From a virus (Duplodnaviria; Heunggongvirae; Uroviricota; Caudoviricetes): DNA of 64,000 bases. How positions within the stretch are numbered: the stretch's first letter is position 1; each line of letters starts with the position of its first letter. A program made the translations under genes and the position numbers. Below, one piece after another: positions 3,945 through 63,117 of this stretch. The notes below the pieces were generated by a model, which worked only from the letters and a program-made list of their open reading frames with translations, ran no database searches and was not told the origin of the DNA. The stretch is taken from IMG/VR virus record IMGVR_UViG_3300006155_000234; one strand, given 5' to 3'.

Positions 3945-3959
3945 GTAAAATATTAATGA
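3945..3959 (+). promoter_or_regulatory. late-promoter-like motif GTAAAATATTAATGA (copy L1)
   Basis: Exact 15-mer shared with 8 other sites. Confidence 0.4.
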
Positions 3960-3998
3960 TGAAAAAGTTTAGGAAATTTTAAAAATTTTAAAAAATGC

Positions 3999-4027
3999 TT
4001 GACATATTTTAAAACTTATAGTATTAT
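3999..4027 (+). promoter_or_regulatory. sigma-A-type promoter TTGACA-17-TATTAT (early family copy P1)
   Basis: aaaaatgcTTGACAtattttaaaacttatagTATTAT, near-identical to 10 other copies. Confidence 0.6.
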
Positions 4028-4061
4028 AAGTATAGATTAAAATTGAATTGGAGGATTTAAT

Positions 4062-4664
4062 ATGGAAAAGAAAGAACAAGAATTAAGAGATTTAATACAA
4101 AATTGGTGTGAGTTAGATGATGATATGAGATACAGAGATGTGGATGATGCAACAGATGAATTTACTGATACATTTATATCATCTGAAGATTTAGAAAATT
4201 TTGGTTATACAAATGGTGATTATGATGAAATAAGAGAAATAGTATTTGAAGTAGTAGACACATATATTACTGAAAATAGCAATATTTATGAAATGGCAGA
4301 AGAATGGAATGGAAATGGATACACAAATTATTTAGATGAGGGAGAATGGGAAGAAATATTCCATAATGCACCAGAAGTTTATAAAAGTGCTCTAGATGCA
4401 AGAGCAGGATGGGTAAAAGAATCATGGGGAGAAGTACCAGATTTAGTATGGGATGAACTAATGGAAATTATTGATGAGCAATTAGGATTTATCAATTATA
4501 ATCCAATGGCAGTAATAGATAATGTATTAGTAAATGGTTCTTATGGTGACTTTGACGATTTTAAAGATGAAGAAGAATCTGATGAAGATTTTATAGCAAG
4601 AGAAGAAGATAATTGTTATAGAATATTCCCAGAAGAAAGATTTATTATATATACTTTAGGTTAA
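4062..4664 (+). CDS. hypothetical highly acidic protein
   Basis: ORF downstream of promoter P1, RBS TGGAGGA. Confidence 0.55.
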   Translation: MEKKEQELRDLIQNWCELDDDMRYRDVDDATDEFTDTFISSEDLENFGYTNGDYDEIREIVFEVVDTYITENSNIYEMAEEWNGNGYTNYLDEGEWEEIFHNAPEVYKSALDARAGWVKESWGEVPDLVWDELMEIIDEQLGFINYNPMAVIDNVLVNGSYGDFDDFKDEEESDEDFIAREEDNCYRIFPEERFIIYTLG

Positions 4665-4682
4665 TGGAAGGAGGTAATATCA

Positions 4683-4853
4683 ATGAATGAAGAACAATTA
4701 TTTGAAAAATTTGTAGATTTTCTAATGAATTTACCAGAGGATTTAGAATTATCTAATATACTAAATGTTATAGAAGATTCATTAGGGCAAATACCACCAA
4801 CAGAAAATATAAGTACAGTAAGAGAATTATTAGATTATTGGGACGTAGTATAA
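4683..4853 (+). CDS. small hypothetical protein (56 aa)
   Basis: ATG preceded by GGAAGGAGG; below the ORF-track length cutoff. Confidence 0.45.
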   Translation: MNEEQLFEKFVDFLMNLPEDLELSNILNVIEDSLGQIPPTENISTVRELLDYWDVV

Positions 4854-4871
4854 TTAGAGATTGAGATTTAA

Positions 4872-4901
4872 AAGAAACTCAAATAGGAGTTTCTTTTTTT
4901 G
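4872..4901 (+). terminator. rho-independent terminator
   Basis: 9-bp stem aagaaactc/gagtttctt followed by T7. Confidence 0.65.
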
Positions 4902-4905: not shown

Positions 4906-4920
4906 GTAAAATATTAATGA
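4906..4920 (+). promoter_or_regulatory. late-promoter-like motif GTAAAATATTAATGA (L2)
   Basis: Exact motif 5 nt after the terminator T-run. Confidence 0.45.
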
Positions 4921-5389: not shown

Positions 5390-6571
5390 ATGGAAATAGT
5401 AAAAATGTTATGCCCATCAAGTAAATATTGGTGTAAAGCACCCTATGAAATGAATCCACAAGGAATCACCATTCATAATACAGCTAATGATGCTTCTGCA
5501 AAAAATGAAGTATCATATATGATTACAAATAATAATAAAGTATCATACCACTGGGCAGTAGATGATGTAAGAGCTGTTCAAGCAATAGAACATAATAGAA
5601 ATGCTTGGCATGCTGGTGATGGTGGTGGATTTGGAAATAGACAAACAATAGGAATAGAAATATGTTATAGTAAATCAGGAGGAGCAAGATTTGAAGCAGC
5701 CGAAAGAAATGCTGCTGAATTAACTGCAAGAATTATGCTTCAATATGGATGGGGTGTAGATACAATAGGAACAAAAGTTGTAAATACACATCAAAGTAGA
5801 AGTGGTAAATATTGTCCTCATAGAACACTTGATATGGGACTAGAAAGATTTTGGAATATAGTTAGACAAAAGTATGCAGAATTATCTGGTACATCTGTTG
5901 CACCTATACCAACACCAGCTCCTGCTCCAGCAGTAAATGGTGACAGTTATTTAGTACAAATAACAACAAGAGCATTAAATATTAGGAGTGGAGCTGGAAC
6001 AGGAAATGCGATAACAGGTTGTATAAGAGATAGAGGTGTTTATACAATAGTTGAAACTCAAGGTAATTGGGGTAGACTAAAATCTGGAACAGGGTGGATT
6101 TGTTTAGATTTTACAAAGAGAGTTGGTGGAAGTTCAACACCATCTGCACCAACACAACCTAAAGGACACTATGTAGGTGAAAATGTTTCAATAAATGGTG
6201 TATTCACATCATCAATGTCAACAAAGAAATTAAATCCAGCTGTTAAATCAGGTACTATTACAAAAATAGTAAATGGTGCAAATAATCCATATCTATTAAA
6301 CAATGGTAATATTGGATGGGTAAATGATAGTTGTATTGTAGGTGGAAATTCAGCACCAACACCTCAACCATCAGCACCTGCAGGATTTAGTAAAGGACAA
6401 AGAGTAACATTAAAGACATCAGCAGGTAGATATTGTACAGGACAAACAATTCCAAGTTCAATCAAGGGAAAATCTTATACTATAATGCAAGTAGGAAGTG
6501 GTAATACACATCCAGATGGAATACTATTAAAAGAGATTATGTCTTGGGTATATAAGAAAGATGTTCAATAA
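5390..6571 (+). CDS. endolysin: N-acetylmuramoyl-L-alanine amidase (amidase_2/PGRP fold) with C-terminal SH3-type cell-wall-binding repeats
   Basis: ITIHNTAND...YHWAVDD...AWHAGDGGG...IGIEICY...YCPHRTL is the amidase_2 zinc-site pattern; three SH3-like repeats follow (YLVQITTRALNIRSGAG...GNWGRLKSGTGWI). Start moved to the ATG at 5390 behind GAGGAGG. Confidence 0.8.
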   Translation: MEIVKMLCPSSKYWCKAPYEMNPQGITIHNTANDASAKNEVSYMITNNNKVSYHWAVDDVRAVQAIEHNRNAWHAGDGGGFGNRQTIGIEICYSKSGGARFEAAERNAAELTARIMLQYGWGVDTIGTKVVNTHQSRSGKYCPHRTLDMGLERFWNIVRQKYAELSGTSVAPIPTPAPAPAVNGDSYLVQITTRALNIRSGAGTGNAITGCIRDRGVYTIVETQGNWGRLKSGTGWICLDFTKRVGGSSTPSAPTQPKGHYVGENVSINGVFTSSMSTKKLNPAVKSGTITKIVNGANNPYLLNNGNIGWVNDSCIVGGNSAPTPQPSAPAGFSKGQRVTLKTSAGRYCTGQTIPSSIKGKSYTIMQVGSGNTHPDGILLKEIMSWVYKKDVQ

Positions 6572-6938: not shown

Positions 6939-7307
6939 ATGGAACAAGTAAATCAAATCATAACAGCTTTAATGCCTTATGTAGTTACAATAGTTACAGC
7001 TATTGCAGGTTATGTAGCATTAAAGATAAAAAATAAATTTGAAGAAAAAATCAATACAGATACTAAAAAAGAAGTTGTGGAAGCAACAGTTAAGTATGTA
7101 CAACAAGTGTATGAAGCATTAGATGGAAAAGAGAAATTACAAAAAGCTCTTGAAACATCTGTTGAATGGTTAGAAGAAAAAGGAATAACTATTACAGAAG
7201 CAGAAGCAACAATTTTAATAGAAGCTGCAATAAAAGGATTTAAAGCAAGCTGGTACACACCAGTAACACCTGAATTAGAAGAAGCTAAAACAGAAGAAAC
7301 AAAATAA
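6939..7307 (+). CDS. holin (LL-H/phage_holin_6-like, single TM)
   Basis: N-terminal TM (ITALMPYVVTIVTAIAGYVAL) and LL-H-like C-terminal region (VEWLEEKGITITEAEATILIEAAIKGF); sits beside the endolysin. Confidence 0.6.
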   Translation: MEQVNQIITALMPYVVTIVTAIAGYVALKIKNKFEEKINTDTKKEVVEATVKYVQQVYEALDGKEKLQKALETSVEWLEEKGITITEAEATILIEAAIKGFKASWYTPVTPELEEAKTEETK

Positions 7308-7318: not shown

Positions 7319-7357
7319 GTGGTATTACTTTCAAAAGATTGTAATACCACTTTTGTT
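7319..7357 (+). terminator. rho-independent terminator
   Basis: 10-bp stem gtggtattac/gtaataccac followed by TTTTGTT. Confidence 0.65.
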
Positions 7358-7361: not shown

Positions 7362-7376
7362 GTAAAATATTAATGA
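7362..7376 (+). promoter_or_regulatory. late-promoter-like motif GTAAAATATTAATGA (L3)
   Basis: Exact motif. Confidence 0.45.
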
Positions 7377-7405: not shown

Positions 7406-7434
7406 TTGACATATTTTAAAACTTGTATTATAAT
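7406..7434 (+). promoter_or_regulatory. sigma-A-type promoter TTGACA-17-TATAAT (P2)
   Basis: attgcTTGACAtattttaaaacttgtatTATAAT. Confidence 0.6.
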
Positions 7435-7465: not shown

Positions 7466-9985
7466 ATGGATGTAGGAAACGGAAAATCATTACATGAACT
7501 TATGGCTCAAATGTTAGGAAAAACACAAAAAGTAGAAGAAGATAATGTAATAGGAAAACAAGATACAGAAATAAAAATAGATAAAAATGTTAAAGATGCA
7601 AACCAAGAAGCAATAGATACTGCAAATATAATTAAATCTGCACCAACAAGAGAAGACCCAAATAAACCAGAAACAGAGAAAGATGAGGAAAATGTTGATG
7701 GAATTGCAGATGGAATATTAGTAGTAACAGACCCTGAAATAACAAGTGAGGAATTTGAAGAAGTAGCTGACGAATTACAGGGTATAGTTGATAATACAGA
7801 TGTAGGAGAATTACCATTTACAGATAAATATGAGGGAGATTATATTTTATCATGCCCTATATGTGGAGGAACATTTGTAAATGATACATTATTAGATAGT
7901 GGAGAAGATACATGCCCTATATGTTGTAAAGTACCAGATAGTTTTGTTGTGAATGGTAGAGTTGAAAATACAAATGCTGTGACAGATAAAGAAGAAGTAC
8001 AGGATAATATAGAACACGAAGAAAATCTTGAAGAACCAGAAGATATAGAAAATCAAGAAAGTTTAGAAGAACCTGAAATGGTTGAAGATGAGGAGGAAAA
8101 TCCATTGAGAAAAGAAAGTAAACAAATAGAAGGAAAGAAACTACAAGAAGATGCTTATGGTGACTATGTAGAAAATGAAAAATCATTAGCAAAAGATTAT
8201 AGTGAAAGAGTAAAGAAAAATATACCACAAGAGGCTAGAGATGCTTTCAAAGATTTAAAAGATATGTTAGATGAAGGAGATAATAAAACATTAGTTGATG
8301 GTTTCTATTTTCCAAAGAAAGCTGTTGATATTTTAAATAATTCTGATAAATCTCATCATCTAAATTCATATATGGATTTAACTATATCTAATATTTTAAA
8401 TCTAATAGAAGATAATAATACTATTGAAGAAGCAATAGATGAACTATTTAATGATTATAAAGCTGATAGTGCATTTAGTTGGGCTGATAACTTTGTTACA
8501 GTGTTAAGTAAAGTAGATACAAGTTATGTAGAAGATGATGAATTATATGAGTATGATGACGAAGAAGAATTTGAAGAAAGTAAAAAATTGACAGAAGGAG
8601 ATACCTATGATAAAGGTATATTTTATGAAATAGAACAAGCACTTGAAGATGCAGGTTTGAATCCTTCAAGATTTACAGATGATGGTGTTTTGACAAGAAA
8701 TATAGGATGGACAGTAACATCATCTGAAACAGGTGAAAGTCAACAAATAACATGTGATGGTAGTTGGTATAATGAAGAACTTGAAGAGAGTAAAAAAGTT
8801 GAAGGTGACTTATCTAAAGACTTATATGGAAATGAGGCAGACAGAAGAATAAATAATAGATTACAAAATTTAGATATTTATTTAGAAGAATTACAAGATG
8901 CAATAAAAGATAATGATGAAGATTTAATAACTGCTAATAAATCAAAAATAATGGGAAATATAGGATACTTAATACCAGCATTAAATATAAAAGGTGGTTC
9001 AAAAGGTTTAGTAGAATATATTAAAAATACTGATTTCGATTTTGAGAATAGATTTAAAGAAACAATAAATATACTAGAAGATGTGGCAGGTGAATATAGA
9101 AAAGAATATGAAGAAAATAAGAAAATAACAGAAAATTTAGAAGAACCAAATTATAAAGATATGTCAACAGAAGATTTAGATGCATATATGACAGATATAA
9201 TTAATAAAAGAGAAGGAACAGAAGATAATACAGAAGTAGCTGATTATTTAGACCAGTTATATATGGATGTTGATAATGAAATTCAGAGAAGAAAAGAAAC
9301 AGAAAGTAAAAAGATAGTTGAAGGAACAAAAGTATGGAGTTCTGAAAGTGAGTATGTTGACCAGAATGACCCTGACTTTAAAGAGTGGTTAGCGGAGTTT
9401 CATGATGTAAATGCAGAAGCACAAGAAGAAGCAGAAAATTTAGGAATAGACCCAAATAACCAAGAAGAGATGGACAATATTTATGATGGCTTAATTCAAG
9501 ACTATTTAGAAATGTACAATGAAAATGATAATGAAGCAATATCAGAAGATTGGAACGAGAATATACTACCTATGATAGAAAGACAATTAGATGATAATGA
9601 TTTAGTTATAATGTTAGGTACAGCACAAACTTGGAGAGGAACTGGTAATGCAGGAAAAGTATTAAGAGGAATGGACGATTTTAAATCATTAGTTGCAGAT
9701 TATGATATAATAGAGTTTGAAACAAGTGATGACGAAAGTCTATCAATAAATTTAATACATCATGATGGTACTCATAGAATGGCATTATATACATTTAATG
9801 GAGATGTTGAGGGAATTTATAATAAGCTAATTGAATTAGGTGTAAATGAATTTACTGGTGATGATTATGAGGACTTTGATGATGCATATTCATATTATGA
9901 TGCAGGTGACTTCATAGATTATATGTTAGATGGACATCAAGCAGAATTACAAGAATTTTTAATTCCAATAAGATGGGATATATAA
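7466..9985 (+). CDS. very large highly acidic protein with paired CPICGG/CPICC zinc-ribbon motif
   Basis: ORF behind AGGAGG RBS; the 7406 track start falls inside the promoter so the start was moved to ATG 7466. Long D/E-rich low-complexity stretches. Confidence 0.6.
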   Translation: MDVGNGKSLHELMAQMLGKTQKVEEDNVIGKQDTEIKIDKNVKDANQEAIDTANIIKSAPTREDPNKPETEKDEENVDGIADGILVVTDPEITSEEFEEVADELQGIVDNTDVGELPFTDKYEGDYILSCPICGGTFVNDTLLDSGEDTCPICCKVPDSFVVNGRVENTNAVTDKEEVQDNIEHEENLEEPEDIENQESLEEPEMVEDEEENPLRKESKQIEGKKLQEDAYGDYVENEKSLAKDYSERVKKNIPQEARDAFKDLKDMLDEGDNKTLVDGFYFPKKAVDILNNSDKSHHLNSYMDLTISNILNLIEDNNTIEEAIDELFNDYKADSAFSWADNFVTVLSKVDTSYVEDDELYEYDDEEEFEESKKLTEGDTYDKGIFYEIEQALEDAGLNPSRFTDDGVLTRNIGWTVTSSETGESQQITCDGSWYNEELEESKKVEGDLSKDLYGNEADRRINNRLQNLDIYLEELQDAIKDNDEDLITANKSKIMGNIGYLIPALNIKGGSKGLVEYIKNTDFDFENRFKETINILEDVAGEYRKEYEENKKITENLEEPNYKDMSTEDLDAYMTDIINKREGTEDNTEVADYLDQLYMDVDNEIQRRKETESKKIVEGTKVWSSESEYVDQNDPDFKEWLAEFHDVNAEAQEEAENLGIDPNNQEEMDNIYDGLIQDYLEMYNENDNEAISEDWNENILPMIERQLDDNDLVIMLGTAQTWRGTGNAGKVLRGMDDFKSLVADYDIIEFETSDDESLSINLIHHDGTHRMALYTFNGDVEGIYNKLIELGVNEFTGDDYEDFDDAYSYYDAGDFIDYMLDGHQAELQEFLIPIRWDI

Positions 9986-10079: not shown

Positions 10080-10382
10080 ATGTCTAGGAGTTATAGGAAA
10101 TTTCCTGGAAGAAAGTTCAACTCTCCAGGAATGAAAAACATTGCAAATAGGAAAGTAAGACGATATAAAGGTGAAATTGCAAATGGAAAAGGCTACAAGA
10201 AATTATTTGATAGTTGGGATATATGTGATTTTAGCTGGTATCAACCAAGAGAAGATGCTATAGCAAGTTGGTATAAAGACCAAGCAGAAATAGCTAATGG
10301 TGTAAATAGTTGGAAGGTAAAATATCAAAATACTTTAGACGAAGAGTTAGCGATGTGGAAAAAAGATTATTATTGCAAATAA
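10080..10382 (+). CDS. small basic hypothetical protein
   Basis: ORF, RBS AGGTGA; K/R rich. Confidence 0.45.
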   Translation: MSRSYRKFPGRKFNSPGMKNIANRKVRRYKGEIANGKGYKKLFDSWDICDFSWYQPREDAIASWYKDQAEIANGVNSWKVKYQNTLDEELAMWKKDYYCK

Positions 10383-10414
10383 AGAAGGGTAACTAATACC
10401 CTTCTTTAATTTTG
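10382..10414 (+). terminator. rho-independent terminator
   Basis: 10-bp stem aagaagggta/tacccttctt followed by T-rich run. Confidence 0.65.
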
Positions 10415-10429
10415 GTAAAATATTAATAG
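10415..10429 (+). promoter_or_regulatory. late-promoter-like motif GTAAAATATTAATAG (L4, 1 mismatch)
   Basis: Motif immediately before the RBS of the terminase gene. Confidence 0.45.
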
Positions 10430-12597: not shown

Positions 12598-12627
12598 AGG
12601 GTGTATATAATACACCCTATTATTATT
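12598..12627 (+). terminator. rho-independent terminator
   Basis: 8-bp stem agggtgta/tacaccct followed by attattatt. Confidence 0.55.
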
Positions 12628-12629: not shown

Positions 12630-12644
12630 GTAAAATATTAATGA
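12630..12644 (+). promoter_or_regulatory. late-promoter-like motif GTAAAATATTAATGA (L5)
   Basis: Exact motif. Confidence 0.45.
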
Positions 12645-12662: not shown

Positions 12663-13268
12663 ATGGGAATGCTTATTAGAAATGAAGCACTATTACAAAG
12701 AAGATACTTTAAGGAAATGTGTAAGTTAGTTGGTATAAGTTGTGCTTATCAATGGGTTACAGATAAAGAATATACAATACATTCCGAAAAGAATTTCAAA
12801 TATTCTCAACCTATTAGAATGAATATAATACTAAATGAAAATCCTACAATAGAAACATTAAATACTTATGGATGGTTATCTGAATTAGGAGATACATTGC
12901 CAATAATTGCACATATACCATTTGACACTCCAAATTTAATGGTTGGGTGCAGAATAATGTTAGCAACTATTAAAGGTACAGACAGACCTAGACTTTTTGA
13001 TATAACTAGAATAGGAAGTAATTTAGAATATCCTGATAGTTATACAGTAGCCTTAGCACCAGTACTAGACCAATTCCCACAAAGAAATCAATATACATTA
13101 GTAAATAATGAAAAGGTTAGTCAAGAAAAAAGTGAGGTTACATCTAAAGAACAAAATTCACTATATACAACTAATACAGAAGTAATAGATACAACACCAG
13201 AGAAGTTTAAAGAATGGGAAAATAATTATACATTTATTAATGATGAGGACAGTCCATTTAGCGGATAG
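12663..13268 (+). CDS. hypothetical protein
   Basis: ORF, RBS GGAGG. Confidence 0.5.
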   Translation: MGMLIRNEALLQRRYFKEMCKLVGISCAYQWVTDKEYTIHSEKNFKYSQPIRMNIILNENPTIETLNTYGWLSELGDTLPIIAHIPFDTPNLMVGCRIMLATIKGTDRPRLFDITRIGSNLEYPDSYTVALAPVLDQFPQRNQYTLVNNEKVSQEKSEVTSKEQNSLYTTNTEVIDTTPEKFKEWENNYTFINDEDSPFSG

Positions 13269-13278
13269 GAGATGGGAT

Positions 13279-13752
13279 ATGTTAGTAAGAATGCAGTTCG
13301 AAAATTTAACAGATGACGAACGAGATAGAATTAGAGATTTTTTGAATTGGTTGTGTGAGAAAATATTTATTTATATGAATAGAGATGCAAACAAAAGAAG
13401 AATTGATGCTAGATTAAATTATATAAAAAGAGCTAGATGGATAGAATGGATAAGTTCAAAAGATATTACAACAGATATGATTATGGCTAGTATAAAAAAG
13501 TGTTTTAAAATAAGAAAAAGAAAAGAAACATGGGAGATATATTTTGATAATAGGGTTTTAATTCCTAACACAAGAACACCAATAACTAAATTCTTAAAAT
13601 TTATTGATAATGGGGATAATATTGTAAAGGGAACTGGAATGATACAATTTATAAGAAGAAAGTTCAATCATGTTCAATTAAATAAATGGTGGAAGGCTTA
13701 TATAATGTTGAAAACATCTAGTATAACAAAAGGAAAAATAATATCAGATTAA
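13279..13752 (+). CDS. hypothetical basic protein
   Basis: ORF; start moved to the ATG behind GGATAGGAGATGGG. Confidence 0.45.
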   Translation: MLVRMQFENLTDDERDRIRDFLNWLCEKIFIYMNRDANKRRIDARLNYIKRARWIEWISSKDITTDMIMASIKKCFKIRKRKETWEIYFDNRVLIPNTRTPITKFLKFIDNGDNIVKGTGMIQFIRRKFNHVQLNKWWKAYIMLKTSSITKGKIISD

Positions 13753-13768
13753 TGGAGGTAGATAATAA

Positions 13769-14539: not shown

Positions 14540-14549
14540 GAGGTAGTAT

Positions 14550-15296: not shown

Positions 15297-15313
15297 ATTA
15301 GGAGGTAATATAA

Positions 15314-15772: not shown

Positions 15773-15792
15773 TATAATTAGGAGGTTATATA

Positions 15793-17835: not shown

Positions 17836-17864
17836 TTGACATATTTTAAAACTTATAGTATAAT
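17836..17864 (+). promoter_or_regulatory. sigma-A-type promoter TTGACA-17-TATAAT (P3) with upstream A/T UP-like box
   Basis: ttttgaaaaaacccTTGACAtattttaaaacttatagTATAAT. Confidence 0.6.
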
Positions 17865-30518: not shown

Positions 30519-30533
30519 GTAAAATATTAATGA
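30519..30533 (+). promoter_or_regulatory. late-promoter-like motif GTAAAATATTAATGA (L6)
   Basis: Exact motif overlapping the RBS region of the homing-endonuclease gene. Confidence 0.4.
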
Positions 30534-41985: not shown

Positions 41986-41990
41986 AGGTG

Positions 41991-42218: not shown

Positions 42219-42224
42219 AAATAC

Positions 42225-42253: not shown

Positions 42254-42281
42254 AAACAAAAACAGAGAGGTAGGAAATTTT

Positions 42282-49767: not shown

Positions 49768-49796
49768 TTGACATAATTGCAAAATTATTGTATAAT
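49768..49796 (+). promoter_or_regulatory. sigma-A-type promoter TTGACA-17-TATAAT (P10), with a second TTGACA 15 nt upstream (49753-49758)
   Basis: acTTGACAaataaatacTTGACAtaattgcaaaattattgTATAAT. Confidence 0.55.
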
Positions 49797-50405: not shown

Positions 50406-50434
50406 TTGACAGATAAAAATATCTATGATAAAAT
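50406..50434 (+). promoter_or_regulatory. sigma-A-type promoter candidate TTGACA-17-TAAAAT (P11)
   Basis: tactaTTGACAgataaaaatatctatgaTAAAAT. Confidence 0.4.
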
Positions 50435-51327: not shown

Positions 51328-51342
51328 GTAAAATATTAATGA
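51328..51342 (+). promoter_or_regulatory. late-promoter-like motif GTAAAATATTAATGA (L7), embedded in a terminator hairpin (51333-51371)
   Basis: Exact motif; atattaatgagg/cctcattaatat stem followed by T6. Confidence 0.45.
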
Positions 51343-51393
51343 GGAAATGTAAAACCTCATTAATATTTTTTATTATGTAAAGGAGAGTGTAGA

Positions 51394-54991: not shown

Positions 54992-55024
54992 AAAAGACTA
55001 CAAATAATGTAGTCTTTATTTTTG
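54992..55024 (+). terminator. rho-independent terminator
   Basis: 10-bp stem aaagactaca/tgtagtcttt followed by ATTTTT. Confidence 0.65.
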
Positions 55025-55039
55025 GTAAAATATTAATGA
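55025..55039 (+). promoter_or_regulatory. late-promoter-like motif GTAAAATATTAATGA (L8)
   Basis: Exact motif directly after the terminator. Confidence 0.45.
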
Positions 55040-55071: not shown

Positions 55072-57270
55072 ATGGCAGATGTTTGGTGTGATAATGGTTG
55101 GCATACTGGTGGAGCACCTAGAAGAAAAGTATCTGGAACTTTAAGTGCTAATTATTCAGGTTTAACCATAAGTGCTTCTTTCAGTGGAAATCAAGTATTA
55201 ACTGCATCAGGTCACTCTTCAATGTCAGATACAGTAAGACTTTACATAGATGGTAACCAGGTTGGCAGTACAACAGTTGCAATGGTTGGTGGTGGAATAT
55301 CTATGTCAGGTTCTTTAAATGTAGGTGCTGGAAATCATACAATTTCAGTAACTATGGAATGTCCTGATATTACAAATGGAAGACATTGTTCTGCCAATCT
55401 AAGAGGACCTGTAACTATTGGCTCTTTAACATTATATGTACCAGACCCATATTCTCCTCCTGCCTATGATATATGGAGTGCTACTCAAATAGTAAAAGTA
55501 GATAGAGATAAAGTAGATGTAAACTATAAGATAAATGGTGGTACTAATGGACTTGGTTGGGTAATAGCAAGAGTAGATGGTGTAAGAGATTTTGGTTTTG
55601 GAAATGGTAAGGGAGATTCTTTATGGGGTAGTTTCTATCCAACTTGGGGTGATGGGTTTAGACATGGAAGTTCTTATAATGTTAGGATAAGGTTTAGTGA
55701 TGGTCATGCAGAATATCAAACAGGACATAAAACATTTTATACATATCAAGAACCTACTATAACAGGTGTATCTGCAAATCCTACTGCTGTAAATGCACAA
55801 AATCAAACAATAACATTTACACAATCAGGAATTAATGATAGAGCTTGGGCAGCACTAGAACAACAATTCTACACATTAGCACATTGTTCATATAGTGGTG
55901 TAAATATAGGAAATGCTTGGACACAAGTAGGAACAGCAGGTAATAATTCTACATTTACTTTAAGTGGAGCAAATTTAAGAGGATTTGTACCAAAAGCTTA
56001 TGATAATCAAATAATAACAATGCATGTTAAAAGAAGAAATAACTCAGCAAATTGGGAAAGTGCAGAAAAGACTTGCACCTTTAAAGTAATATATAAACCA
56101 TTAAAAGGTGTAACTTGTGGTAATCTTTCATATAGAAAAAATAACTCAAGTGGAAGTGGAATAGGTAAAGACGATTTAGTAATAAATGATACCAGTTTGA
56201 CAGGAATATATTTAAGTTGGGTATATGATACAACAACAGCAGATGCTGGTTATACACAAGGATATAGAATAAGATTATATAATCAAGCAGGAACAGTAGT
56301 AAAAACATATTATACAACAAGTAAGAGTTTTGTAATACCAAAAGCAGATATACCAAAAATGCAACATACTAAAGTAGATATAACACCTTATTTTGGAAAT
56401 GACCAAGCTCAATTAGCAAATCCAGCTTATGCAAGTAATTATTGGTATTTCACATCTCCTACTCAATGTGATTTTGTTGTAATGGCTGCTAGATTAGCAA
56501 AACCATCAATAACATATCCAATAGAAGGTTCTGATTGGATAAATACAAAATTTAGAGTATGTTTTCAATTACCAGCAGACCCAGATAAAGGTTCTGAATT
56601 AGAAACATATCATTATGATGATATAGAAATAGAAGTAAATAATAAAGTATTCAGATTAACATCTGACCCAGCAGGTAAGACAGCAACAGGTACACAAGCA
56701 GCATCTATATCAAGTGCATTAGCAAGTAATTTAACATATCAAAGGAAAATGATATTTGCACCATTTAAAGCATCAGGGTTTCCTATTGCAACAACATATA
56801 GATTGAGAGTAAGAGTTAAAAAGAAATATACAGGTGATAAAAATAATTGGAGTGAATGGAGTAATGTTAGAACATTTACAATAACACCAGCATCATTTAC
56901 ACCAGTTAGAGGAGATATAATATATGCAACACATTATAATAATTCTAAAGCATTAATAAATAGAGTAAGGAATACTTATGGTGTAGTATGGAATAATCAA
57001 CCAAATAATGTAGTAAGAGGAACAACTATATTAAGAACACAATACCCTTATGCTAATTGGTATGATAGAATAGTAGCAACAAAGAAACAGGTAAATGATT
57101 ATGGTTCATTTGATAATAATGATGTTAAGTTTGACCATACAAACAATATAGTAGAGAACTTTTCTCAATATATAGAATATGTAACAGCAGACAGCAATGA
57201 AGCTAAAAGTGATGGAAGTGGTAGAAATTATATGAGGATAGTTTATGATAGATGTAATAGATTAATTTAG
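55072..57270 (+). CDS. large tail/receptor-binding structural protein
   Basis: Start moved to the ATG behind AAAGGAG; beta-rich Gly/Thr/Asn composition. Confidence 0.55.
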   Translation: MADVWCDNGWHTGGAPRRKVSGTLSANYSGLTISASFSGNQVLTASGHSSMSDTVRLYIDGNQVGSTTVAMVGGGISMSGSLNVGAGNHTISVTMECPDITNGRHCSANLRGPVTIGSLTLYVPDPYSPPAYDIWSATQIVKVDRDKVDVNYKINGGTNGLGWVIARVDGVRDFGFGNGKGDSLWGSFYPTWGDGFRHGSSYNVRIRFSDGHAEYQTGHKTFYTYQEPTITGVSANPTAVNAQNQTITFTQSGINDRAWAALEQQFYTLAHCSYSGVNIGNAWTQVGTAGNNSTFTLSGANLRGFVPKAYDNQIITMHVKRRNNSANWESAEKTCTFKVIYKPLKGVTCGNLSYRKNNSSGSGIGKDDLVINDTSLTGIYLSWVYDTTTADAGYTQGYRIRLYNQAGTVVKTYYTTSKSFVIPKADIPKMQHTKVDITPYFGNDQAQLANPAYASNYWYFTSPTQCDFVVMAARLAKPSITYPIEGSDWINTKFRVCFQLPADPDKGSELETYHYDDIEIEVNNKVFRLTSDPAGKTATGTQAASISSALASNLTYQRKMIFAPFKASGFPIATTYRLRVRVKKKYTGDKNNWSEWSNVRTFTITPASFTPVRGDIIYATHYNNSKALINRVRNTYGVVWNNQPNNVVRGTTILRTQYPYANWYDRIVATKKQVNDYGSFDNNDVKFDHTNNIVENFSQYIEYVTADSNEAKSDGSGRNYMRIVYDRCNRLI

Positions 57271-58224: not shown

Positions 58225-58689
58225 ATGATACCAAATTGTAAAAACAATAATTTAGAAGAAAAATATAATAAGTTAATTGACGATTTATATTATAAACCAA
58301 ATGACTATTTGATTTCAGATAGTTATTTTGTTTCAGGATATGTTACATCTTTGAGAAAGTCAATACATATATTTATTGTTGTAGATAAAAGTATGTATAA
58401 TATAAATAATATAATTATAGAAAAATTTGGTGGAAGTATTAGACATTCTTTAGGTGGTTATATATTTGAAACTGCATACGGAGGTGCTAATCATTCTATT
58501 CTAAAAGAATCTACATTTTCAGATTATACTGCACATAAAATGAATAATCATACAATACTTGCAAAGTTTAATTTCATTTCTGAAATACCAGTGTACTATG
58601 CAAATGGTTCTCAAGTAACTAATTCTGCAATAACAAATAATTATTTAATAGGAACAGTAATAGAAGATTTAAAAATAAGATTTGAATAA
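58225..58689 (+). CDS. small tail-associated protein, paralog 3 (MIPNCK)
   Basis: Starts MIPNCKNN; RBS AAGGAGGA. Confidence 0.5.
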   Translation: MIPNCKNNNLEEKYNKLIDDLYYKPNDYLISDSYFVSGYVTSLRKSIHIFIVVDKSMYNINNIIIEKFGGSIRHSLGGYIFETAYGGANHSILKESTFSDYTAHKMNNHTILAKFNFISEIPVYYANGSQVTNSAITNNYLIGTVIEDLKIRFE

Positions 58690-58715
58690 GGGCAAATAAG
58701 CCCTTATTTATTTTG
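58688..58715 (+). terminator. rho-independent terminator
   Basis: Stem aagggc/gccctt followed by ATTTATTTT. Confidence 0.55.
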
Positions 58716-58730
58716 GTAAAATATTAATGA
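58716..58730 (+). promoter_or_regulatory. late-promoter-like motif GTAAAATATTAATGA (L9)
   Basis: Exact motif directly after the terminator. Confidence 0.45.
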
Positions 58731-58776: not shown

Positions 58777-61332
58777 ATGGCAAAGAACCCAGTATCATAT
58801 TATGATGGAGAAAATATAACTTGTTTTCCATCATCAAATGCTAAAGATTTTGGTAAATTACATACAGAATTTAATGAAGCAAGATTTGTAACCAGAGTTG
58901 CAAAAAAGAATTTCTGTATTAAAAATCCAAGTTTTGTATTGAGTGCTGAAAATGATATAAAAACAAATAAAACTGTATTACAAATATCAGAAGGCGAGGC
59001 ATCTATTAATGGTATGGATATTATAGCATCAGTACCAATTCAAATAGACCCTCCAGCAGAGGCAGGTAAATGGTATGTTGCTTTTAAATTAGGAAGAGAT
59101 AATCTAGGAAGAGATTTTACAGTTGGAAAATATAAATTAAAAGGAAATGTACTAGGAGATTTAACAGTAGGTGTACAAAAAACATTTGAAGGAATGTATT
59201 TAACTTATTATAATGAAAGATTAGATGAGGGAAATGAAGACCCAGATATGCTTTATTTAGGTAGTATAGAATGGGATGGTAATGATTTTACAAATATAGA
59301 GGAAGACCCTCAAAAGTATTCCAGAATAGAAGCAGAAGATGTTGGATGTTATATAAAAGACCCAAAACATGCTGATGTTTATTATATGGATTTACAAAGT
59401 TGGTTATATAAAGTTCCAGACTGGTATTTCTCTAAAGAAGGGGATGTTTGTTATGGTGAAATCAATGTAGTTCCAGGAAGAGGAGCACATCCATCTCCAT
59501 ATCAAGACCCAATGCCTGGATTTATATTAAGAGCTTATGATAAGAATACTACTAAAATGGTGTTAAAAGCATCATCATTAGAAAATGCTACATTAATGAG
59601 ATATGGTGATATAAATAATGATGGTGAGATAAATGACGCTGACTTAGCATTATTGACTGATTTTGTAAATGGTGTAAAAACACCAACACCATTAGAAAAA
59701 GAACTAGCCTGTGTTAGTGGAAATAGACAAGGTGATTTAACAGAAAAAGATATAGAATTATTAAGAAATTATGTACAAGGTTCTAGACCAGATTTAGTAA
59801 AAGGCGAGAAGAAATTAGTAGGAAAAACTGGAGTTATATATGGTATAGGTGATGTAACAGAAGCAATCGAAATATATGCATCAAATTCTAAAGTAGAAAT
59901 TGATATGAACCATGCTCAAATATATTCTAATTTTCAAGATGATATATTCCATATTCATAACCCAGAAGGTATATGTATTGAATCAGGTAGTGGGGATATT
60001 AAGTTAGAAGCATATAATGATGTTTATATGAAAAGATTTGATAGTAATGCTCCAACATTAAGATTAACAGGTAATGTTTTAAGAATGACAGACCCTAATA
60101 CACCAGACTTAAAACATGAGTGGGAATTGATAAAAGATGGTACAAATCAAAAGGCACATACAACAACAGGAAAAACAATACAAGAATATGACCTAAATAA
60201 TAAATTCTATAATATACTTGCAAATGATACAATTAGGATGAATGTATATCCTCAATTCTATATGCAAAATGCAAGGAATAGATGTATAGGTACATTGTAT
60301 TTTGGACCTGATGATGGAAATGATGATAATTATTTTAAAAGAAATGAAATACAATTAGACAGTAATCAAGATGATAATGTAGATTTAAAACTAACAGATA
60401 GGACAATTTTCCTAAGAGATGAGAATGGTGGTAGTACAAATAGTTATATTAAAGTTGGTGGAACTAATGGTAATAATGGTGTAACAGCTTATTCTAATGG
60501 AAATATGGAATTGAAGAATACAACAGGAATATCTGAAATTAAGTTTACAGGAAATAGTGCAGCAAATACAGCAAGAATATGGCATGAACATAATAATAAC
60601 ATATTACACATTGATACAAACCTTCATATAAAAAATAATATAACAGCAGATGGAGATGGATATTTTAATGGTGGAGATGTTTATATCAAAAATCAGGGTG
60701 GAACATCAAACCTATATTTCACAGATGGTACTAAAACATATAAAATCTATCATTTGAATAATGAAGATAAATTACACATAAATACAAACTTAAATATGGA
60801 TAACAATAATATAGAAAATGTAAACAATATCTATGCTAATACAAGTATAAATGTAGGACCAAAAGGCTCTGACAACAAGTATCCAATAACACTAGATAAA
60901 AATGGTAATATAGATGCAAAAGGAGATATAACAGGAAAGAGAGTTTTTGGTGCTGTTTATAATGACTATGGTGAAATATTTAGAAAAGATAAGGATGAAA
61001 TTATTGAATATGGGGATATAGTTTGTTTAAGAGAAGATGGATTAGTACACAAAGTAGAAACACAAGAAGATTTATTTAATCTAATTGGAATATGTTCAAA
61101 TACAATAGGTATGTGTTTAGGTGGTGCAGAATTAGAAGAAGATGAAAAATGCCCAGTTGGTATAGTAGGTAAGATATGGGTTAAAACAGATGATATGGAT
61201 TTAAAGCCAGGAGACCATGTAAGAGCTACAAGTAATGGAACAGTAGTAAAGAATAAAGAAAAGGCATTTGAAAAGTTTGGTATAGTAATGCAAAAATATG
61301 AAAATGGAAAAGTTTTAATATTTGTTAAATAA
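58777..61332 (+). CDS. tail fibre / host-adhesion protein containing an internal dockerin module (about 59605-59781)
   Basis: 851 aa, RBS AAAGGAGG. GDINNDGEINDADLALLTDFVNG...GNRQGDLTEKDIELLRNYVQG is a duplicated Ca-binding F-hand dockerin signature; beta-rich fibre flanks. Confidence 0.6.
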   Translation: MAKNPVSYYDGENITCFPSSNAKDFGKLHTEFNEARFVTRVAKKNFCIKNPSFVLSAENDIKTNKTVLQISEGEASINGMDIIASVPIQIDPPAEAGKWYVAFKLGRDNLGRDFTVGKYKLKGNVLGDLTVGVQKTFEGMYLTYYNERLDEGNEDPDMLYLGSIEWDGNDFTNIEEDPQKYSRIEAEDVGCYIKDPKHADVYYMDLQSWLYKVPDWYFSKEGDVCYGEINVVPGRGAHPSPYQDPMPGFILRAYDKNTTKMVLKASSLENATLMRYGDINNDGEINDADLALLTDFVNGVKTPTPLEKELACVSGNRQGDLTEKDIELLRNYVQGSRPDLVKGEKKLVGKTGVIYGIGDVTEAIEIYASNSKVEIDMNHAQIYSNFQDDIFHIHNPEGICIESGSGDIKLEAYNDVYMKRFDSNAPTLRLTGNVLRMTDPNTPDLKHEWELIKDGTNQKAHTTTGKTIQEYDLNNKFYNILANDTIRMNVYPQFYMQNARNRCIGTLYFGPDDGNDDNYFKRNEIQLDSNQDDNVDLKLTDRTIFLRDENGGSTNSYIKVGGTNGNNGVTAYSNGNMELKNTTGISEIKFTGNSAANTARIWHEHNNNILHIDTNLHIKNNITADGDGYFNGGDVYIKNQGGTSNLYFTDGTKTYKIYHLNNEDKLHINTNLNMDNNNIENVNNIYANTSINVGPKGSDNKYPITLDKNGNIDAKGDITGKRVFGAVYNDYGEIFRKDKDEIIEYGDIVCLREDGLVHKVETQEDLFNLIGICSNTIGMCLGGAELEEDEKCPVGIVGKIWVKTDDMDLKPGDHVRATSNGTVVKNKEKAFEKFGIVMQKYENGKVLIFVK

Positions 61333-61343
61333 GAGGTAATATT

Positions 61344-61586
61344 ATGAATAGTATAAAGAAATGGTTAAATAGAGAAGTTACTTGGGGAATACTAATTAAA
61401 CTAATAATATGTATAAATATAATTGTATTAGGATTTTGTATTGTATTAGCTAAATCATCTGACTTAAAAGATATGGAAAGACAAAAATATATTAAAAATC
61501 TTGAGTACAGAGTTGGTGTGCAATCAAAATTATTAGACTATTTTTATACCGAAATAATAAATAACAAGATAGTAGATAATAAATAA
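61344..61586 (+). CDS. small membrane protein
   Basis: TM segment WGILIKLIICINIIVLGFCIVLA. Confidence 0.45.
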   Translation: MNSIKKWLNREVTWGILIKLIICINIIVLGFCIVLAKSSDLKDMERQKYIKNLEYRVGVQSKLLDYFYTEIINNKIVDNK

Positions 61587-61680
61587 TAGATAATAAGTAG
61601 TGGGACAGCAGTTGACTGTTTCCAAGTAATCACCCCCTGATATAAATACTTGGATTACCACTACTTTTAGTATAGAGGTA

Positions 61681-62181
61681 ATGTATATGAGTGATAATAA
61701 ATCTGTTAGAAAAAGATTAGAAAAGATTTATGGTAGGATATGTATGATAGAAGAAGCAGGAATAAGATATATACCAATAGAGAAAAGAAAAACTATTAGA
61801 GGGTATAGAAGAGAACAGGATGAGATAACATATCACCATATAAAAGAAAAACATTTAGGAGGAAAAGCAACAATAGAGAATGGAGCATTGATAAAAAGAT
61901 ATAATCATGATTGGTTACATTCATTACCAGATGAACAAAAAGAAGCTGTAAATAAAGAATTAATACATTTTAAATTAAAGATGTTGAATACATCAGAAGA
62001 TGGTATAATAGAAATAGATATTGCAAATATACCATTAGAATTTAATTTAGATGATTGTATTATAATACCTGTATATGATAATCAAAAGAAACCTAAATTT
62101 AACAGGGCAAAAGTTAAAAGAGAATTTAAAAGAAAAGTAGACGAGTATTATAATGAATTAGAGGATGAGGAAGAAAGATAA
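61681..62181 (+). CDS. HNH endonuclease
   Basis: YHHIKEKHLGGKATIENGALIKRYNHDWLH is an HNH/His-Me finger motif. Confidence 0.6.
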   Translation: MYMSDNKSVRKRLEKIYGRICMIEEAGIRYIPIEKRKTIRGYRREQDEITYHHIKEKHLGGKATIENGALIKRYNHDWLHSLPDEQKEAVNKELIHFKLKMLNTSEDGIIEIDIANIPLEFNLDDCIIIPVYDNQKKPKFNRAKVKREFKRKVDEYYNELEDEEER

Positions 62182-62255
62182 TCAGGAATTACCAGAATTG
62201 ATTTCTAGGGAATTTAATTGTAAAAGTATATAAAGTTATATCTTGGAGGATTATA

Positions 62256-62483
62256 ATGGAAAATAATACACAGATAATTGTTAATGAAATATTATCTAAA
62301 TTAAAAGATAGTGCCACTAATATAAAATATGATACAACAATGTCAGAAGAACATAAATTAGAAAGAATGAATGTATTATTAGACGTAATGCACTATACAC
62401 AAAATATAAGAGAATATAGTCAGCTAATATTAGAACATGAGAGAAAGAAAAGAAGGATAAAAGAAAGGGGAAAGAAAGTATAA
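62256..62483 (+). CDS. hypothetical protein
   Basis: ORF, RBS TGGAGGA. Confidence 0.45.
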   Translation: MENNTQIIVNEILSKLKDSATNIKYDTTMSEEHKLERMNVLLDVMHYTQNIREYSQLILEHERKKRRIKERGKKV

Positions 62484-63043
62484 TGTTATTTAATGAAGTA
62501 TTAGTCAATAGAATAAATAAAGAAGATTTTCCTGATAATACAAATAGTATTGTAATACCTTTAGACCCAAATTCAGAGTTGGCATATAATACAATTCATT
62601 TTTTTAAAAAAGACCATAGAGATGAAGGAGATATAAGACATAATATATTGAAAGTATATCAGTTATATTTAGATACACCCTTATTTGATAGTAGTATTAT
62701 ATTAGATAGAATAAATATATGTATAAAAGATGCTTGGAAAAATTATAATGATATAGGAAATAATATATGGTCACCTAGTTATAAAATTGGAAGTACATTA
62801 GATATAGCAATAGTAGAATATGAAAAGTTAAAAATGATATATAGTCAAAATGAAGTAGATGATGATTATTTAAGAAGTTACAAATTAGACTATAAGGAAA
62901 CTTTAAAAGAGTATATAGGTAGTGCTATCTTTGAATTGGAATCTAAAACAGTAATAATTGAAATGAAATATACAAAGAAACCAGCAGAAAATAAATTTAT
63001 AAAAGATATAAAAAGTTTTTATAAAGTAAAAAAAAGACTATAA
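62483..63043 (+). CDS. hypothetical protein
   Basis: ORF overlapping the upstream stop. Confidence 0.5.
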   Translation: MLFNEVLVNRINKEDFPDNTNSIVIPLDPNSELAYNTIHFFKKDHRDEGDIRHNILKVYQLYLDTPLFDSSIILDRINICIKDAWKNYNDIGNNIWSPSYKIGSTLDIAIVEYEKLKMIYSQNEVDDDYLRSYKLDYKETLKEYIGSAIFELESKTVIIEMKYTKKPAENKFIKDIKSFYKVKKRL

Positions 63044-63117
63044 TTTAACTAATGTTTATAGATTATTTTTGTTTTATATGGTAAAATGTAGATAATAGGA
63101 TAATAGGAGTAAGGTGT

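What the first reader, a model, noticed from the sequence alone, without database searches (positions are those of the whole stretch)
3945..63096. Dispersed GTAAAATATTAATGA element: candidate late promoter placed immediately after terminator hairpins
The 15-mer occurs exactly at 3945, 4906, 7362, 12630, 30519, 51328, 55025 and 58716. One-mismatch or variant copies are at 10415 and 63081. Most copies lie 0-6 nt downstream of a GC-stem/T-run terminator and 10-40 nt upstream of an RBS. The genes served are overwhelmingly late or structural: lysis region, terminase, tail fibres, the cohesin ORF. The element has no -35 hexamer and resembles the lone extended -10-like late promoters of T4-type phages, so it probably needs a phage-encoded specificity factor. 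At 51333-51371 the motif is itself part of the terminator stem, so termination and re-initiation signals are physically fused.
Basis: seen in the sequence. Interest (0 to 1): 0.6.

Follow-up and report, generated by a model that had tools for sequence, protein, structure and literature searches.

The report
Late-gene promoter motif of uncultured phage
A 13-15 base sequence repeated between genes of a large uncultured phage is most likely its late promoter, sitting after terminators and ahead of capsid, tail, packaging and lysis genes; this is a normal phage design with a new consensus and an unidentified reader protein.

Summary
GTAAAATATTAATGA occurs 8 times exactly (0.00 expected), and 10415 is a ninth true copy. 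The 63081 "variant" has 4 mismatches and is at chance level. All nine copies are intergenic and on the gene strand. Six follow a strong hairpin plus T-tract.

The 11-nt core GTAAAATATTA is the top repeated word in relatives whose terminase is only 65-74% identical. It sits at orthologous positions, for example before and after the terminase gene. In genome regions where gene orientation flips, the motif flips too.

Annotated genes downstream are lysis, terminase, portal, prohead protease/capsid and tail sheath/tube. A second dispersed element, a perfect TTGACA-17-TATAAT promoter with a fixed spacer, serves nucleic-acid-metabolism and tRNA genes.

There is no -35 element. The embedded TAAAAT, the short leaders and a purine at motif position 14 fit a -10-only promoter with T4-late-like geometry. 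No sigma factor, gp55 or RNA polymerase was found in about 130 kb examined, so the reader of the motif is unknown.

Verdict: a real late-class promoter and a new member of a known kind. Timing and start sites are inferred, not shown. Interest is moderate to low.

The parts
3945..3959 (+). Motif B copy (exact). It lies 39 nt upstream of a sigma-70-type promoter (3999-4027) and serves the 200-aa ORF 4062-4664. There is no strong hairpin upstream.
4906..4920 (+). Motif B copy (exact). It heads the lysis cassette: small ORFs, the Amidase_2/SH3 endolysin 5390-6571 and the holin 6939-7307.
4870..4897 (+). Terminator-like hairpin plus T-tract that ends just before the 4906 copy.
7362..7376 (+). Motif B copy (exact). 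It lies 29 nt upstream of the sigma-70-type promoter 7406-7434 and serves the 839-aa ORF 7466-9985.
7319..7350 (+). Hairpin (-16.3 kcal/mol for the upstream 50 nt) plus T-tract upstream of the 7362 copy.
10415..10429 (+). Motif B copy, variant GTAAAATATTAATAG (exact over the 13-mer). It lies 30 nt before the start of the large terminase gene 10445-12559. The orthologous copy is present in all relatives.
10380..10408 (+). Terminator-like hairpin (12 pairs) plus T-tract upstream of the 10415 copy.
12630..12644 (+). Motif B copy (exact), directly after the terminase gene. It heads the operon 12663-17748, which includes a tail-protein-like 651-aa ORF. Most relatives hold an orthologous copy.
12598..12618 (+). 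Terminator-like hairpin upstream of the 12630 copy.
30519..30533 (+). Motif B copy (exact) with no terminator upstream. It lies 28 nt before a GIY-YIG/NUMOD3 homing endonuclease gene (30547-31428) that sits next to the DNA ligase gene.
51328..51342 (+). Motif B copy (exact). It serves the 941-aa ORF 51394-54219 and forms the 5' arm of the hairpin listed next.
51330..51369 (+). 15-bp hairpin (-14.9 kcal/mol) followed by TTATTAT. Its 5' arm is the motif itself. It is conserved in relative L040.
55025..55039 (+). Motif B copy (exact). It serves the 732-aa ORF 55072-57270 and three small ORFs.
54993..55017 (+). Terminator-like hairpin, with T-tracts on both strands, upstream of the 55025 copy.
58716..58730 (+). 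Motif B copy (exact). It serves the 851-aa ORF 58777-61332, which carries Dockerin_1 and Peptidase_G2 domains and resembles a tail spike or fibre.
58683..58710 (+). Terminator-like hairpin upstream of the 58716 copy.

Best explanation
The element is the core promoter of the late (morphogenesis, packaging, lysis) gene class of a large uncultured myovirus-like phage. The phage has a 159-220 kb genome of about 27% G+C, T4-type head genes and a family-A DNA polymerase. Its RBS, promoter and endolysin features suggest a Gram-positive Firmicutes host.

Proposed geometry (inferred):
- G at -13.
- TAAAAT at -12 to -7, a -10-like hexamer.
- ATTA(A/T)T as an A/T-rich discriminator.
- The conserved purine at motif position 14 as +1.
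- No -35 element.

Each late unit is insulated by an intrinsic terminator placed a few bases upstream. Upstream transcripts stop there, and a new transcript starts at the motif.

At 51328 the order is folded together. The motif is the 5' arm of the terminator hairpin. Read-through RNA from upstream contains both arms and can terminate. RNA started at the motif lacks most of the 5' arm and runs on into the gene.

Because 11-13 nt are invariant and a -35 is missing, recognition probably needs a phage-directed change of host RNA polymerase, such as a small gp55-like sigma or an appropriator. This step is inferred, and no such factor was identified.

A second promoter class, a canonical TTGACA-17-TATAAT with a fixed spacer, would be read by unmodified host sigma-A and drives early and metabolic genes.
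For: Shown by computation:
1. Eight exact copies against 0.00 expected, plus one 13-mer copy. It is the top repeated word in the window.
2. Nine of nine copies are intergenic and on the gene strand.
3. In the window plus non-redundant relatives, all 42 copies of the 10-nt core GTAAAATATT are on the gene strand and none on the other. Of the 40 copies checked for coding context, 38-40 are intergenic. The median distance to an RBS-preceded start is 48 nt, range 28-167, so the distance is variable.
4. The core is conserved at orthologous sites, immediately before and after the terminase gene, in relatives with 65-74% terminase identity. The flanks and hairpin sequences differ there.
5. In regions of mixed gene orientation the motif flips with the genes. 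Seven of eight distinct sites directly precede a co-oriented gene, including back-to-back divergent pairs with the sigma-70-type promoter.
6. Five of six + strand terminator-like sites in the scanned regions are followed within 5-11 nt by the motif. Hairpin energies are -11 to -16 against -4.0 +/- 2.6 kcal/mol.
7. There is no information at -35-equivalent positions, and the sigma-70 consensus scanner called only one copy, weakly (9 of 12 at 7362).
8. Annotated downstream genes are:
- endolysin and holin;
- TerL;
- T4-type portal;
- Peptidase_S77 prohead protease with a Gp23-type capsid gene;
- head-tail adaptor, tail sheath and tail tube;
- a spike-like protein.
The other promoter class serves helicases, tRNAs, Thg1, Pnkp/Rnl and a SAM-lyase protein. 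The split is 8/9 against 0/8, P = 4e-4.
9. At 10415, 12630 and 30519 the RBS abuts the motif. Any start site must therefore lie at or before about position 14, which places the promoter core inside the motif.
10. GTAAAATA aligns 5/8 with the T4 late consensus TATAAATA at -13 to -6 (PMC1524935).
11. No Rfam family overlaps the motif and no consistent leader RNA structure is seen.
Against: - There are no transcript data. Start sites and late timing rest on analogy alone.
- No sigma region 2, gp55/gp33-like protein or RNA polymerase was detected by Pfam or PHROGs in the window. None was found in about 70 kb of further regions of the same or near-identical phages either. The required factor is therefore hypothetical.
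- Many downstream genes have no annotation.
- One copy (L037:5988) lies between two terminators with no gene to serve.
- Sigma-70-type promoters also occur inside the structural region, so the two classes are not spatially exclusive.
- In this genome 5 of 9 copies carry TG at the extended -10 position. Plain sigma-A use is therefore not excluded for them.
Confidence: 0.62

Rival explanations
1. The element is a -35-independent promoter read by unmodified host RNA polymerase with its primary sigma-A, or with a host alternative sigma. It would be a TGnTAAAAT extended -10-type promoter, needing no phage factor and perhaps active throughout infection.
For: TAAAAT matches TATAAT at 5/6 positions, including the key A-11 and T-7. 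Five of nine window copies carry TG two bases upstream. The phage clearly uses host sigma-A for its other promoter class. No phage sigma or RNA polymerase was found.
Against: The TG is absent in 0 of 33 copies in relatives, while the core is invariant. So the conserved determinant is not the extended -10. A bare TAAAAT with no -35 and no TG is a poor sigma-A promoter. G at -13 and ATTA after the hexamer are invariant, which is not a sigma-A signature. The sharp split of gene classes between the two motifs suggests differential regulation.
Confidence: 0.15
2. The element is the promoter of a phage-encoded RNA polymerase, either single-subunit or a divergent multisubunit enzyme of the kind jumbo phages carry, that was not recognised in the sequences examined.
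For: All-or-none, near-perfect conservation of a 13-15-nt block is typical of phage polymerase promoters. Several large ORFs of 700-1250 aa have no detectable family. Part of the genome was not examined.
Against: No RNA_pol or Rpb-like Pfam or PHROG hit in about 130 kb. The block is shorter than T7-type promoters. The embedded -10-like hexamer and T4-like geometry fit a sigma-type reader. The unannotated large ORFs in motif-headed units lie among structural genes.
Confidence: 0.08
3. The element is not a promoter. It would be a cis-acting site on RNA or DNA that lies in leaders of read-through transcripts. Candidates are an endoribonuclease processing site, a translational regulator site, or the binding or loading site of an antiterminator or activator.
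For: Intergenic, strand-specific placement upstream of an RBS would also fit such sites. Because it sits just after terminators, it could be read as an antitermination-linked signal.
Against: The distance to the start codon varies from 28 to 167 nt. At 3945 and 7362 a complete sigma-70-type promoter lies between the motif and the gene, so that promoter's mRNA lacks the motif. In divergent pairs nothing transcribes into the motif from upstream. No conserved -10 follows it, and at three copies there is no room for one. No shared RNA structure and no Rfam match.
Confidence: 0.12
4. The element is a selfish or recombination-related dispersed repeat, such as a mobile terminator-motif cassette or a homing or recombination hot spot, with no transcriptional role.
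For: The motif sits at module boundaries. One copy accompanies a homing endonuclease gene (30519). One orphan copy exists.
Against: Only the 13-15 nt are shared, and the adjacent hairpins and flanks are unrelated in sequence. It is therefore not a repeated cassette. Strict co-orientation with downstream genes and conservation at orthologous sites across 65-74% identity relatives point to selection for function.
Confidence: 0.03

Closest known systems
T4-type late promoters (TATAAATA at -13 to -6; gp55 sigma with gp33 and the gp45 clamp)
   Same: Both are short, highly conserved, A/T-rich -10-only elements with no -35, found 5' of head, tail, packaging and lysis genes. They share the AAATA core and the same predicted geometry (5/8 identity to TATAAATA; compare the Aeh1 variant CTAAATA; PMC1524935). 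The phage has T4-type portal, prohead protease and Gp23-type capsid genes. As in T4, a homing endonuclease gene carries its own late-type promoter (own knowledge for T4).
   Different: The consensus differs (GTAAAATATTA[A/T]T) and is longer, with 11-13 invariant nt. No gp55, gp33 or gp45 homologue was detected. The DNA polymerase is family A, not T4-like. The host is apparently a low-G+C Gram-positive bacterium.
Extended -10 (TGnTATAAT) promoters, including the -35-less middle and late promoters of Thermus phage P23-45 read by host sigma-A holoenzyme remodelled by gp39/gp76 (own knowledge)
   Same: Both are -35-independent with a -10-like hexamer. Both fit a two-class scheme in which -35-dependent early promoters could be shut off while -35-less ones stay active.
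   Different: The TG dinucleotide is present in only 5 of 9 copies here and in none of 33 copies in relatives. The conserved positions extend downstream of the hexamer instead.
Bacillus phage SPO1 middle and late promoters (gp28; gp33-gp34 sigma factors) (own knowledge)
   Same: Both involve a large Gram-positive myovirus with strong sigma-A early promoters, followed by phage-specified promoter classes with unusual consensus sequences.
   Different: SPO1 classes have both -35 and -10 elements (for example CGTTAGA / GATATT). Here no -35 exists and no sigma-70-family gene with region 2 was found.
Phage RNA polymerase promoters (T7-like; phiKZ/AR9 non-virion RNA polymerase)
   Same: Near-invariant short block, strictly strand-specific, and often placed after terminators.
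   Different: No phage RNA polymerase was detected. The block is shorter than T7-type promoters and contains a sigma-type -10 hexamer.

Membership tests
T4-type (gp55-dependent) late promoter | Consensus TATAAATA at -13 to -6 | tested here: not met
   The motif is GTAAAATA at the aligned positions, 5/8 identical. The first three bases differ and are invariant here.
T4-type (gp55-dependent) late promoter | No -35 element | tested here: met
   Information content is about 0 at positions -30 to -15 relative to the motif over 42 copies. The sigma-70 scanner called only one copy, weakly (9 of 12 at 7362).
T4-type (gp55-dependent) late promoter | Located 5' of late (structural, packaging, lysis) genes | tested here: met
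   Eight of nine annotated motif-headed units are structural, packaging or lysis units, against 0 of 8 for the sigma-70-type class.
T4-type (gp55-dependent) late promoter | Phage encodes gp55 (and gp33, gp45) | tested here: inconclusive
   No PHROG or Pfam hit in about 130 kb of a genome of about 159 kb. Part of the genome and ORFs under 70 aa were not scanned, and such proteins diverge fast.
T4-type (gp55-dependent) late promoter | Transcription starts 6-7 nt after the element, late in infection | not testable with these tools
   No transcript data are available. The only support is the geometric constraint from RBSs that abut the motif.
Sigma-70/sigma-A extended -10 promoter | TG at -15/-14 upstream of the -10 hexamer | tested here: not met
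   Five of nine copies in the window and 0 of 33 in relatives.
Sigma-70/sigma-A extended -10 promoter | -10 hexamer close to TATAAT | tested here: met
   TAAAAT (5/6) is invariant in all copies.
Phage single-subunit RNA polymerase promoter (T7-like) | Cognate phage RNA polymerase gene present | tested here: inconclusive
   No RNA polymerase family was detected in the regions examined. The genome was not fully covered.
Phage single-subunit RNA polymerase promoter (T7-like) | About 20-bp conserved block spanning -17 to +6 | tested here: not met
   The conserved block is 13-15 nt in this genome and 11-13 nt across the lineage.
Intrinsic terminator (for the hairpins upstream of the motif) | G+C-containing stem-loop followed by a T-tract on the transcribed strand | tested here: met
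   Five sites were called by the consensus scanner and a sixth by folding, with energies of -11 to -16 kcal/mol. Function was not tested.

The most novel reading that the evidence does not exclude
The late switch in this clade may use no conventional sigma factor. No sigma, gp55 or RNA polymerase gene was found. The only sigma-related gene is a conserved, syntenic chimera at 39233-40129. It joins a nuclease-dead I-HmuI-like HNH domain to a near-perfect copy of region 4 of a bacterial primary sigma factor.

Such a protein could act as a region-4 decoy. It could occupy the -35 TTGACA of the fixed-spacer early promoters, or the beta-flap of RNA polymerase. Either way it would shut off -35-dependent transcription and leave, or even target, polymerase to the -35-less GTAAAATATTA promoters. 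That would be a new way of re-programming host RNA polymerase.
Probability: 0.08. Interest if true: 0.75.

Novelty: new member of a known kind. Interest (0 to 1): 0.36.

Why it matters
The result gives a working transcription map for a widespread but uncultured clade of 140-220 kb phages of A/T-rich Gram-positive hosts. The map has two promoter classes and insulated late units. It lets late genes be predicted among the many unannotated ORFs. It also supplies compact, portable promoter-terminator parts.

It poses a concrete question: what reads a 13-nt -35-less promoter when no sigma factor or polymerase is recognisable? The promoter-inside-terminator arrangement at 51328 is a tidy example of how a phage ends one transcript and starts the next within about 45 nt.

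None of this overturns current understanding. It extends the T4/SPO1-type early-late logic to a new lineage.

Tried and rejected
1. Megablast of 12 kb against GenBank phages found no match. By tblastn the closest terminase is 34% identical (Bacillus phage vB_BceM-HSE3), and that phage lacks the motif.
2. Literature search for the sequence returned only unrelated primers and genes. A search for dockerin-bearing rumen phages found nothing relevant.
3. Rfam (gathering threshold) on the whole window found only tRNAs.
4. Scans of genome contigs and metagenome contigs with a 26-mer of the sigma-70-type promoter gave 0 hits.
5. The same promoter's 19-mer in viral contigs also pulled two unrelated phages, L034 with an SPP1-type portal and L039 with a crAss capsid. 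These were discarded.
6. The hunt for a sigma factor, gp55 or RNA polymerase with Pfam and PHROGs over all accessible ORFs was negative.
7. The sigma-region-4 ORF was tested as a full sigma factor and rejected. hhalign homology to RpoD covers only residues 187-297. The AlphaFold model is poor (pLDDT 59). Foldseek finds only I-HmuI for the N-terminus and region 4 for the C-terminus. Peptide-pattern scanning found no close relative of it in IMG/VR.
8. Two apparent 'convergent' motif copies were re-examined. One serves a 65-aa ORF that the first gene call missed, and one is a true orphan.
9. The extended -10 reading was tested across relatives and rejected as the conserved determinant.
10. The 63081 'variant' was rejected as a copy.
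Full report
OBSERVATION

None of 100 dinucleotide-preserving shuffles produced a single copy.

The copy at 10415 (GTAAAATATTAATAG) is exact over the first 13 nt and is a true ninth member.

The 63081 'variant' has 4 mismatches. At <=3 mismatches the window already holds a chance number of hits (28 against 29.7 expected). The site also lies in a segment that differs between strains. I do not count it.

Copies are all-or-none. Beyond the nine exact 13-mers, the <=2-mismatch class is at chance.

An unbiased 11-mer survey ranks this word first in the window. A second dispersed word family ranks next.

All nine copies lie in the 9.2% of the window that is intergenic (P about 5e-10) and on the coding strand.

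WHAT THE GENOME IS

The window is 100% identical to part of a 159-kb metagenomic contig. Near-identical versions of 197-220 kb exist elsewhere.

It is a phage. The genes found are:
- a large terminase, <=34% identical to any deposited phage;
- an endolysin and a holin;
- a T4-type portal;
- a T4 gp21-type prohead protease;
- a Gp23-type capsid protein;
- a head-tail adaptor, tail sheath and tail tube;
- a family-A DNA polymerase and a DnaB-type helicase;
- tRNAs and RNA-repair genes.

G+C is about 27% with a strongly purine-loaded coding strand.

ANATOMY

Six of nine copies (4906, 7362, 10415, 12630, 55025, 58716) are preceded by a strong hairpin of -11 to -16 kcal/mol. Random 50-mers give -4.0 +/- 2.6 kcal/mol. 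Each hairpin is followed by a T-tract, and the motif starts 5-11 nt after the stem.

The independent consensus scanner finds six + strand terminator-like sites in the two motif-rich regions. Five of them are followed by the motif.

Copies 3945, 30519 and 51328 have no such hairpin upstream.

At 51328 the motif is itself the 5' arm of a 15-bp hairpin (51330-51369; z = -3.55) that is followed by TTATTAT. The same arrangement is kept upstream of the orthologous gene in a relative whose protein is 74% identical and whose upstream flank has diverged.

Downstream, an RBS-preceded start codon follows at 28-66 nt in seven window copies. At 10415, 12630 and 30519 the RBS abuts the motif.

At 3945 and 7362 a complete sigma-70-type promoter lies between the motif and the gene.

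COMPARATIVE EVIDENCE

Nine loci around terminase orthologues (65-74% aa identity; contigs of 73-209 kb) all have GTAAAATATT among their most repeated 10-mers. Counts are 2-6 copies per 7-22 kb on the gene strand and none on the other strand.

Copies sit at orthologous positions, just upstream and just downstream of the terminase gene. The flanking sequence and the terminator stems differ there.

Over 42 copies, the positions flanking the seeded 10-mer show that the conserved block is GTAAAATATTA[A/T]T[G/A]. The -35-equivalent region carries no information. The 3' TGA is specific to this genome.

The TG that would make an extended -10 is present in 5 of 9 window copies but in none of 33 copies in relatives.

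Of the 40 copies checked for coding context (window, relatives and the downstream extension), 38-40 are intergenic. The median distance to the next start is 48 nt.

ORIENTATION TEST

In the window every gene is on one strand. The motif's strand bias could therefore merely reflect genome-wide asymmetry.

Further fragments of the same or near-identical phages were pulled from viral contigs with the other promoter's 19-mer. They include regions of mixed orientation, and there the motif flips with the genes.

In four distinct sites the 600 nt downstream of the motif are purine-loaded in the motif's direction, while the upstream DNA has the opposite polarity. Several of these are back-to-back divergent pairs with the sigma-70-type promoter.

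Two apparent exceptions were examined. One serves a 65-aa ORF that ends at a bidirectional terminator. The other is an orphan copy between two terminators.

Seven of eight distinct sites thus directly precede a co-oriented gene.

TWO PROMOTER CLASSES

The second dispersed element is (GC)TTGACATATTTTAAAACTTATAG-TATAAT. It is a perfect or near-perfect sigma-70/sigma-A promoter with a fixed spacer. It is also conserved, spacer included, at orthologous positions in a more distant relative.

Units headed by the finding's motif, where annotated:
- the lysis cassette;
- TerL;
- a tail-like operon;
- the portal;
- prohead protease, scaffold and capsid;
- adaptor, sheath and tube;
- spike- or fibre-like proteins;
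- one homing endonuclease.

Units headed by the sigma-70-type promoter include helicases, the tRNA clusters, Thg1, Pnkp/RNA ligase, RlaP and a SAM-lyase-domain protein.

The split is 8/9 against 0/8, Fisher P = 4e-4.

The metabolic region of the window (31-50 kb) and its syntenic counterpart in the relative contain only the sigma-70-type class.

The classes are not spatially exclusive. Sigma-70-type promoters also occur among structural genes.

MECHANISM (INFERRED)

The motif contains TAAAAT, a 5/6 match to the -10 hexamer.

The RBS abuts the motif at three copies. Any start site must therefore lie at or before about motif position 14, which places the promoter core inside the motif. Taking TAAAAT as -12 to -7 puts the conserved purine at +1.

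In that register GTAAAATA aligns with the T4 late consensus TATAAATA (-13 to -6) at 5 of 8 positions. T4-like phages are known to vary this consensus, for example CTAAATA in Aeh1 (PMC1524935).

The lack of a -35, the invariance of G-13 and of ATTA after the hexamer, and the gene-class split argue for a reader other than plain sigma-A. No such reader was found.

Pfam and PHROGs scans covered all ORFs of the window, the 8 kb upstream and 9.5 kb downstream of it, and about 50-60 kb of other regions. They gave no sigma region 2, no gp55/gp33 and no RNA polymerase.

The hairpin at 51328 fits the promoter reading well. RNA arriving from upstream holds both arms and can terminate. RNA started near position 14 holds only four bases of the 5' arm and cannot form the hairpin.

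RIVALS

- An RNA-level signal is disfavoured. The distance to the start codon varies, two copies have an intervening promoter, some copies are divergent with nothing transcribing into them, no leader structure is shared, and there is no Rfam match.
- A mobile cassette is disfavoured because only the 13-15 nt are shared.
- Plain sigma-A use and an unrecognised phage polymerase remain possible at lower probability.

COMPARISON AND NOVELTY

The element works like the -35-less late promoters of T4-type phages. It is not a member of that family by sequence, and the defining factor gene was not found.

It differs from extended -10 promoters because the TG is not conserved. It differs from SPO1 late promoters because there is no -35. 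It differs from T7-type promoters because no polymerase was found and the block is short.

The nearest cultured phage does not share it, and the literature search found no description.

It is best filed as a new member, with a new consensus in a new clade, of a well-known kind of element.

LIMITS

- Timing, start sites and the reader protein are all inferred.
- Most downstream genes are unannotated.
- The regions used for the orientation test come from fragmentary contigs of the same sample series and from a 214-kb relative, not from one finished genome.

Noticed in passing
window 3999-4027, 7406-7434, 17836-17864, 19419-19447, 26758-26786, 28515-28543, 33444-33472, 38153-38181, 42225-42253 (also 49768-49796 and 50406-50434 with other spacers): A second dispersed element: a perfect or near-perfect TTGACA-17-TATAAT promoter with an almost invariant spacer (TATTTTAAAACTTATAG) and an A/T-rich upstream tract. 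It serves metabolism and tRNA genes. The spacer is conserved even in a relative whose marker protein is only 49% identical. Sigma-A does not need that much, which hints at an extra binding protein such as a shut-off factor.
   Followed up: partly
window 39233-40129 (+): A 298-aa chimera. The N-terminus resembles the HNH homing endonuclease I-HmuI, with the catalytic His replaced by Phe or Tyr in all homologues. The C-terminus is a close copy of region 4.1/4.2 of a bacterial primary sigma factor, and there is no region 2/3. It is rare (three clusters in 5.8 billion proteins) yet syntenically conserved in a relative. It may be a sigma-region-4 mimic.
   Followed up: partly
window 30547-33395: A GIY-YIG/NUMOD3 homing endonuclease gene with its own motif copy sits directly upstream of the NAD-dependent DNA ligase. 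The ligase appears split here into a 67-aa N-terminal piece (31415-31618) and 31764-33395. In relative L016 it is one 572-aa ORF. Rfam detected no intron.
   Followed up: partly
window 26758-28332 and 38153-44738: tRNA clusters, including one with an odd anticodon loop, lie alongside a full RNA-repair toolkit: two Thg1-like tRNA-His guanylyltransferases, Pnkp/RNA ligase, RlaP, HAD_SAK_2 and YqeY. This suggests a counter-defence against host tRNA-cleaving systems. A Tad8-like anti-Thoeris gene lies at 3139-3384.
   Followed up: no
window 63015-64000: The last kilobase of the window differs from otherwise 100% identical strains (L014, L015), which carry a sigma-70-type promoter and other genes there. 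It is a strain-variable insertion or replacement.
   Followed up: no
L037:5988-6002 (- strand; same site as L038:528): An orphan exact copy of the motif lies between a terminator and a bidirectional terminator with no gene to serve. It may be a remnant of a lost gene or the source of a short transcript.
   Followed up: partly
L027:3249-5631 and 7802-9282; L035:1114-2493: In the 214-kb relative the Gp23-type capsid gene region is interrupted or flanked by several homing-endonuclease-like ORFs (PHROG 3339/559). In L035 the capsid ORF is intact. Heavy homing endonuclease traffic seems to affect the structural genes.
   Followed up: no
L001:1488, L002:5320, L005:3852: In three relatives a motif copy is followed by about 150 nt with no ORF (GGGGTAGTAATATTAAAAAC...), which could be a small late non-coding RNA.
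   Followed up: no
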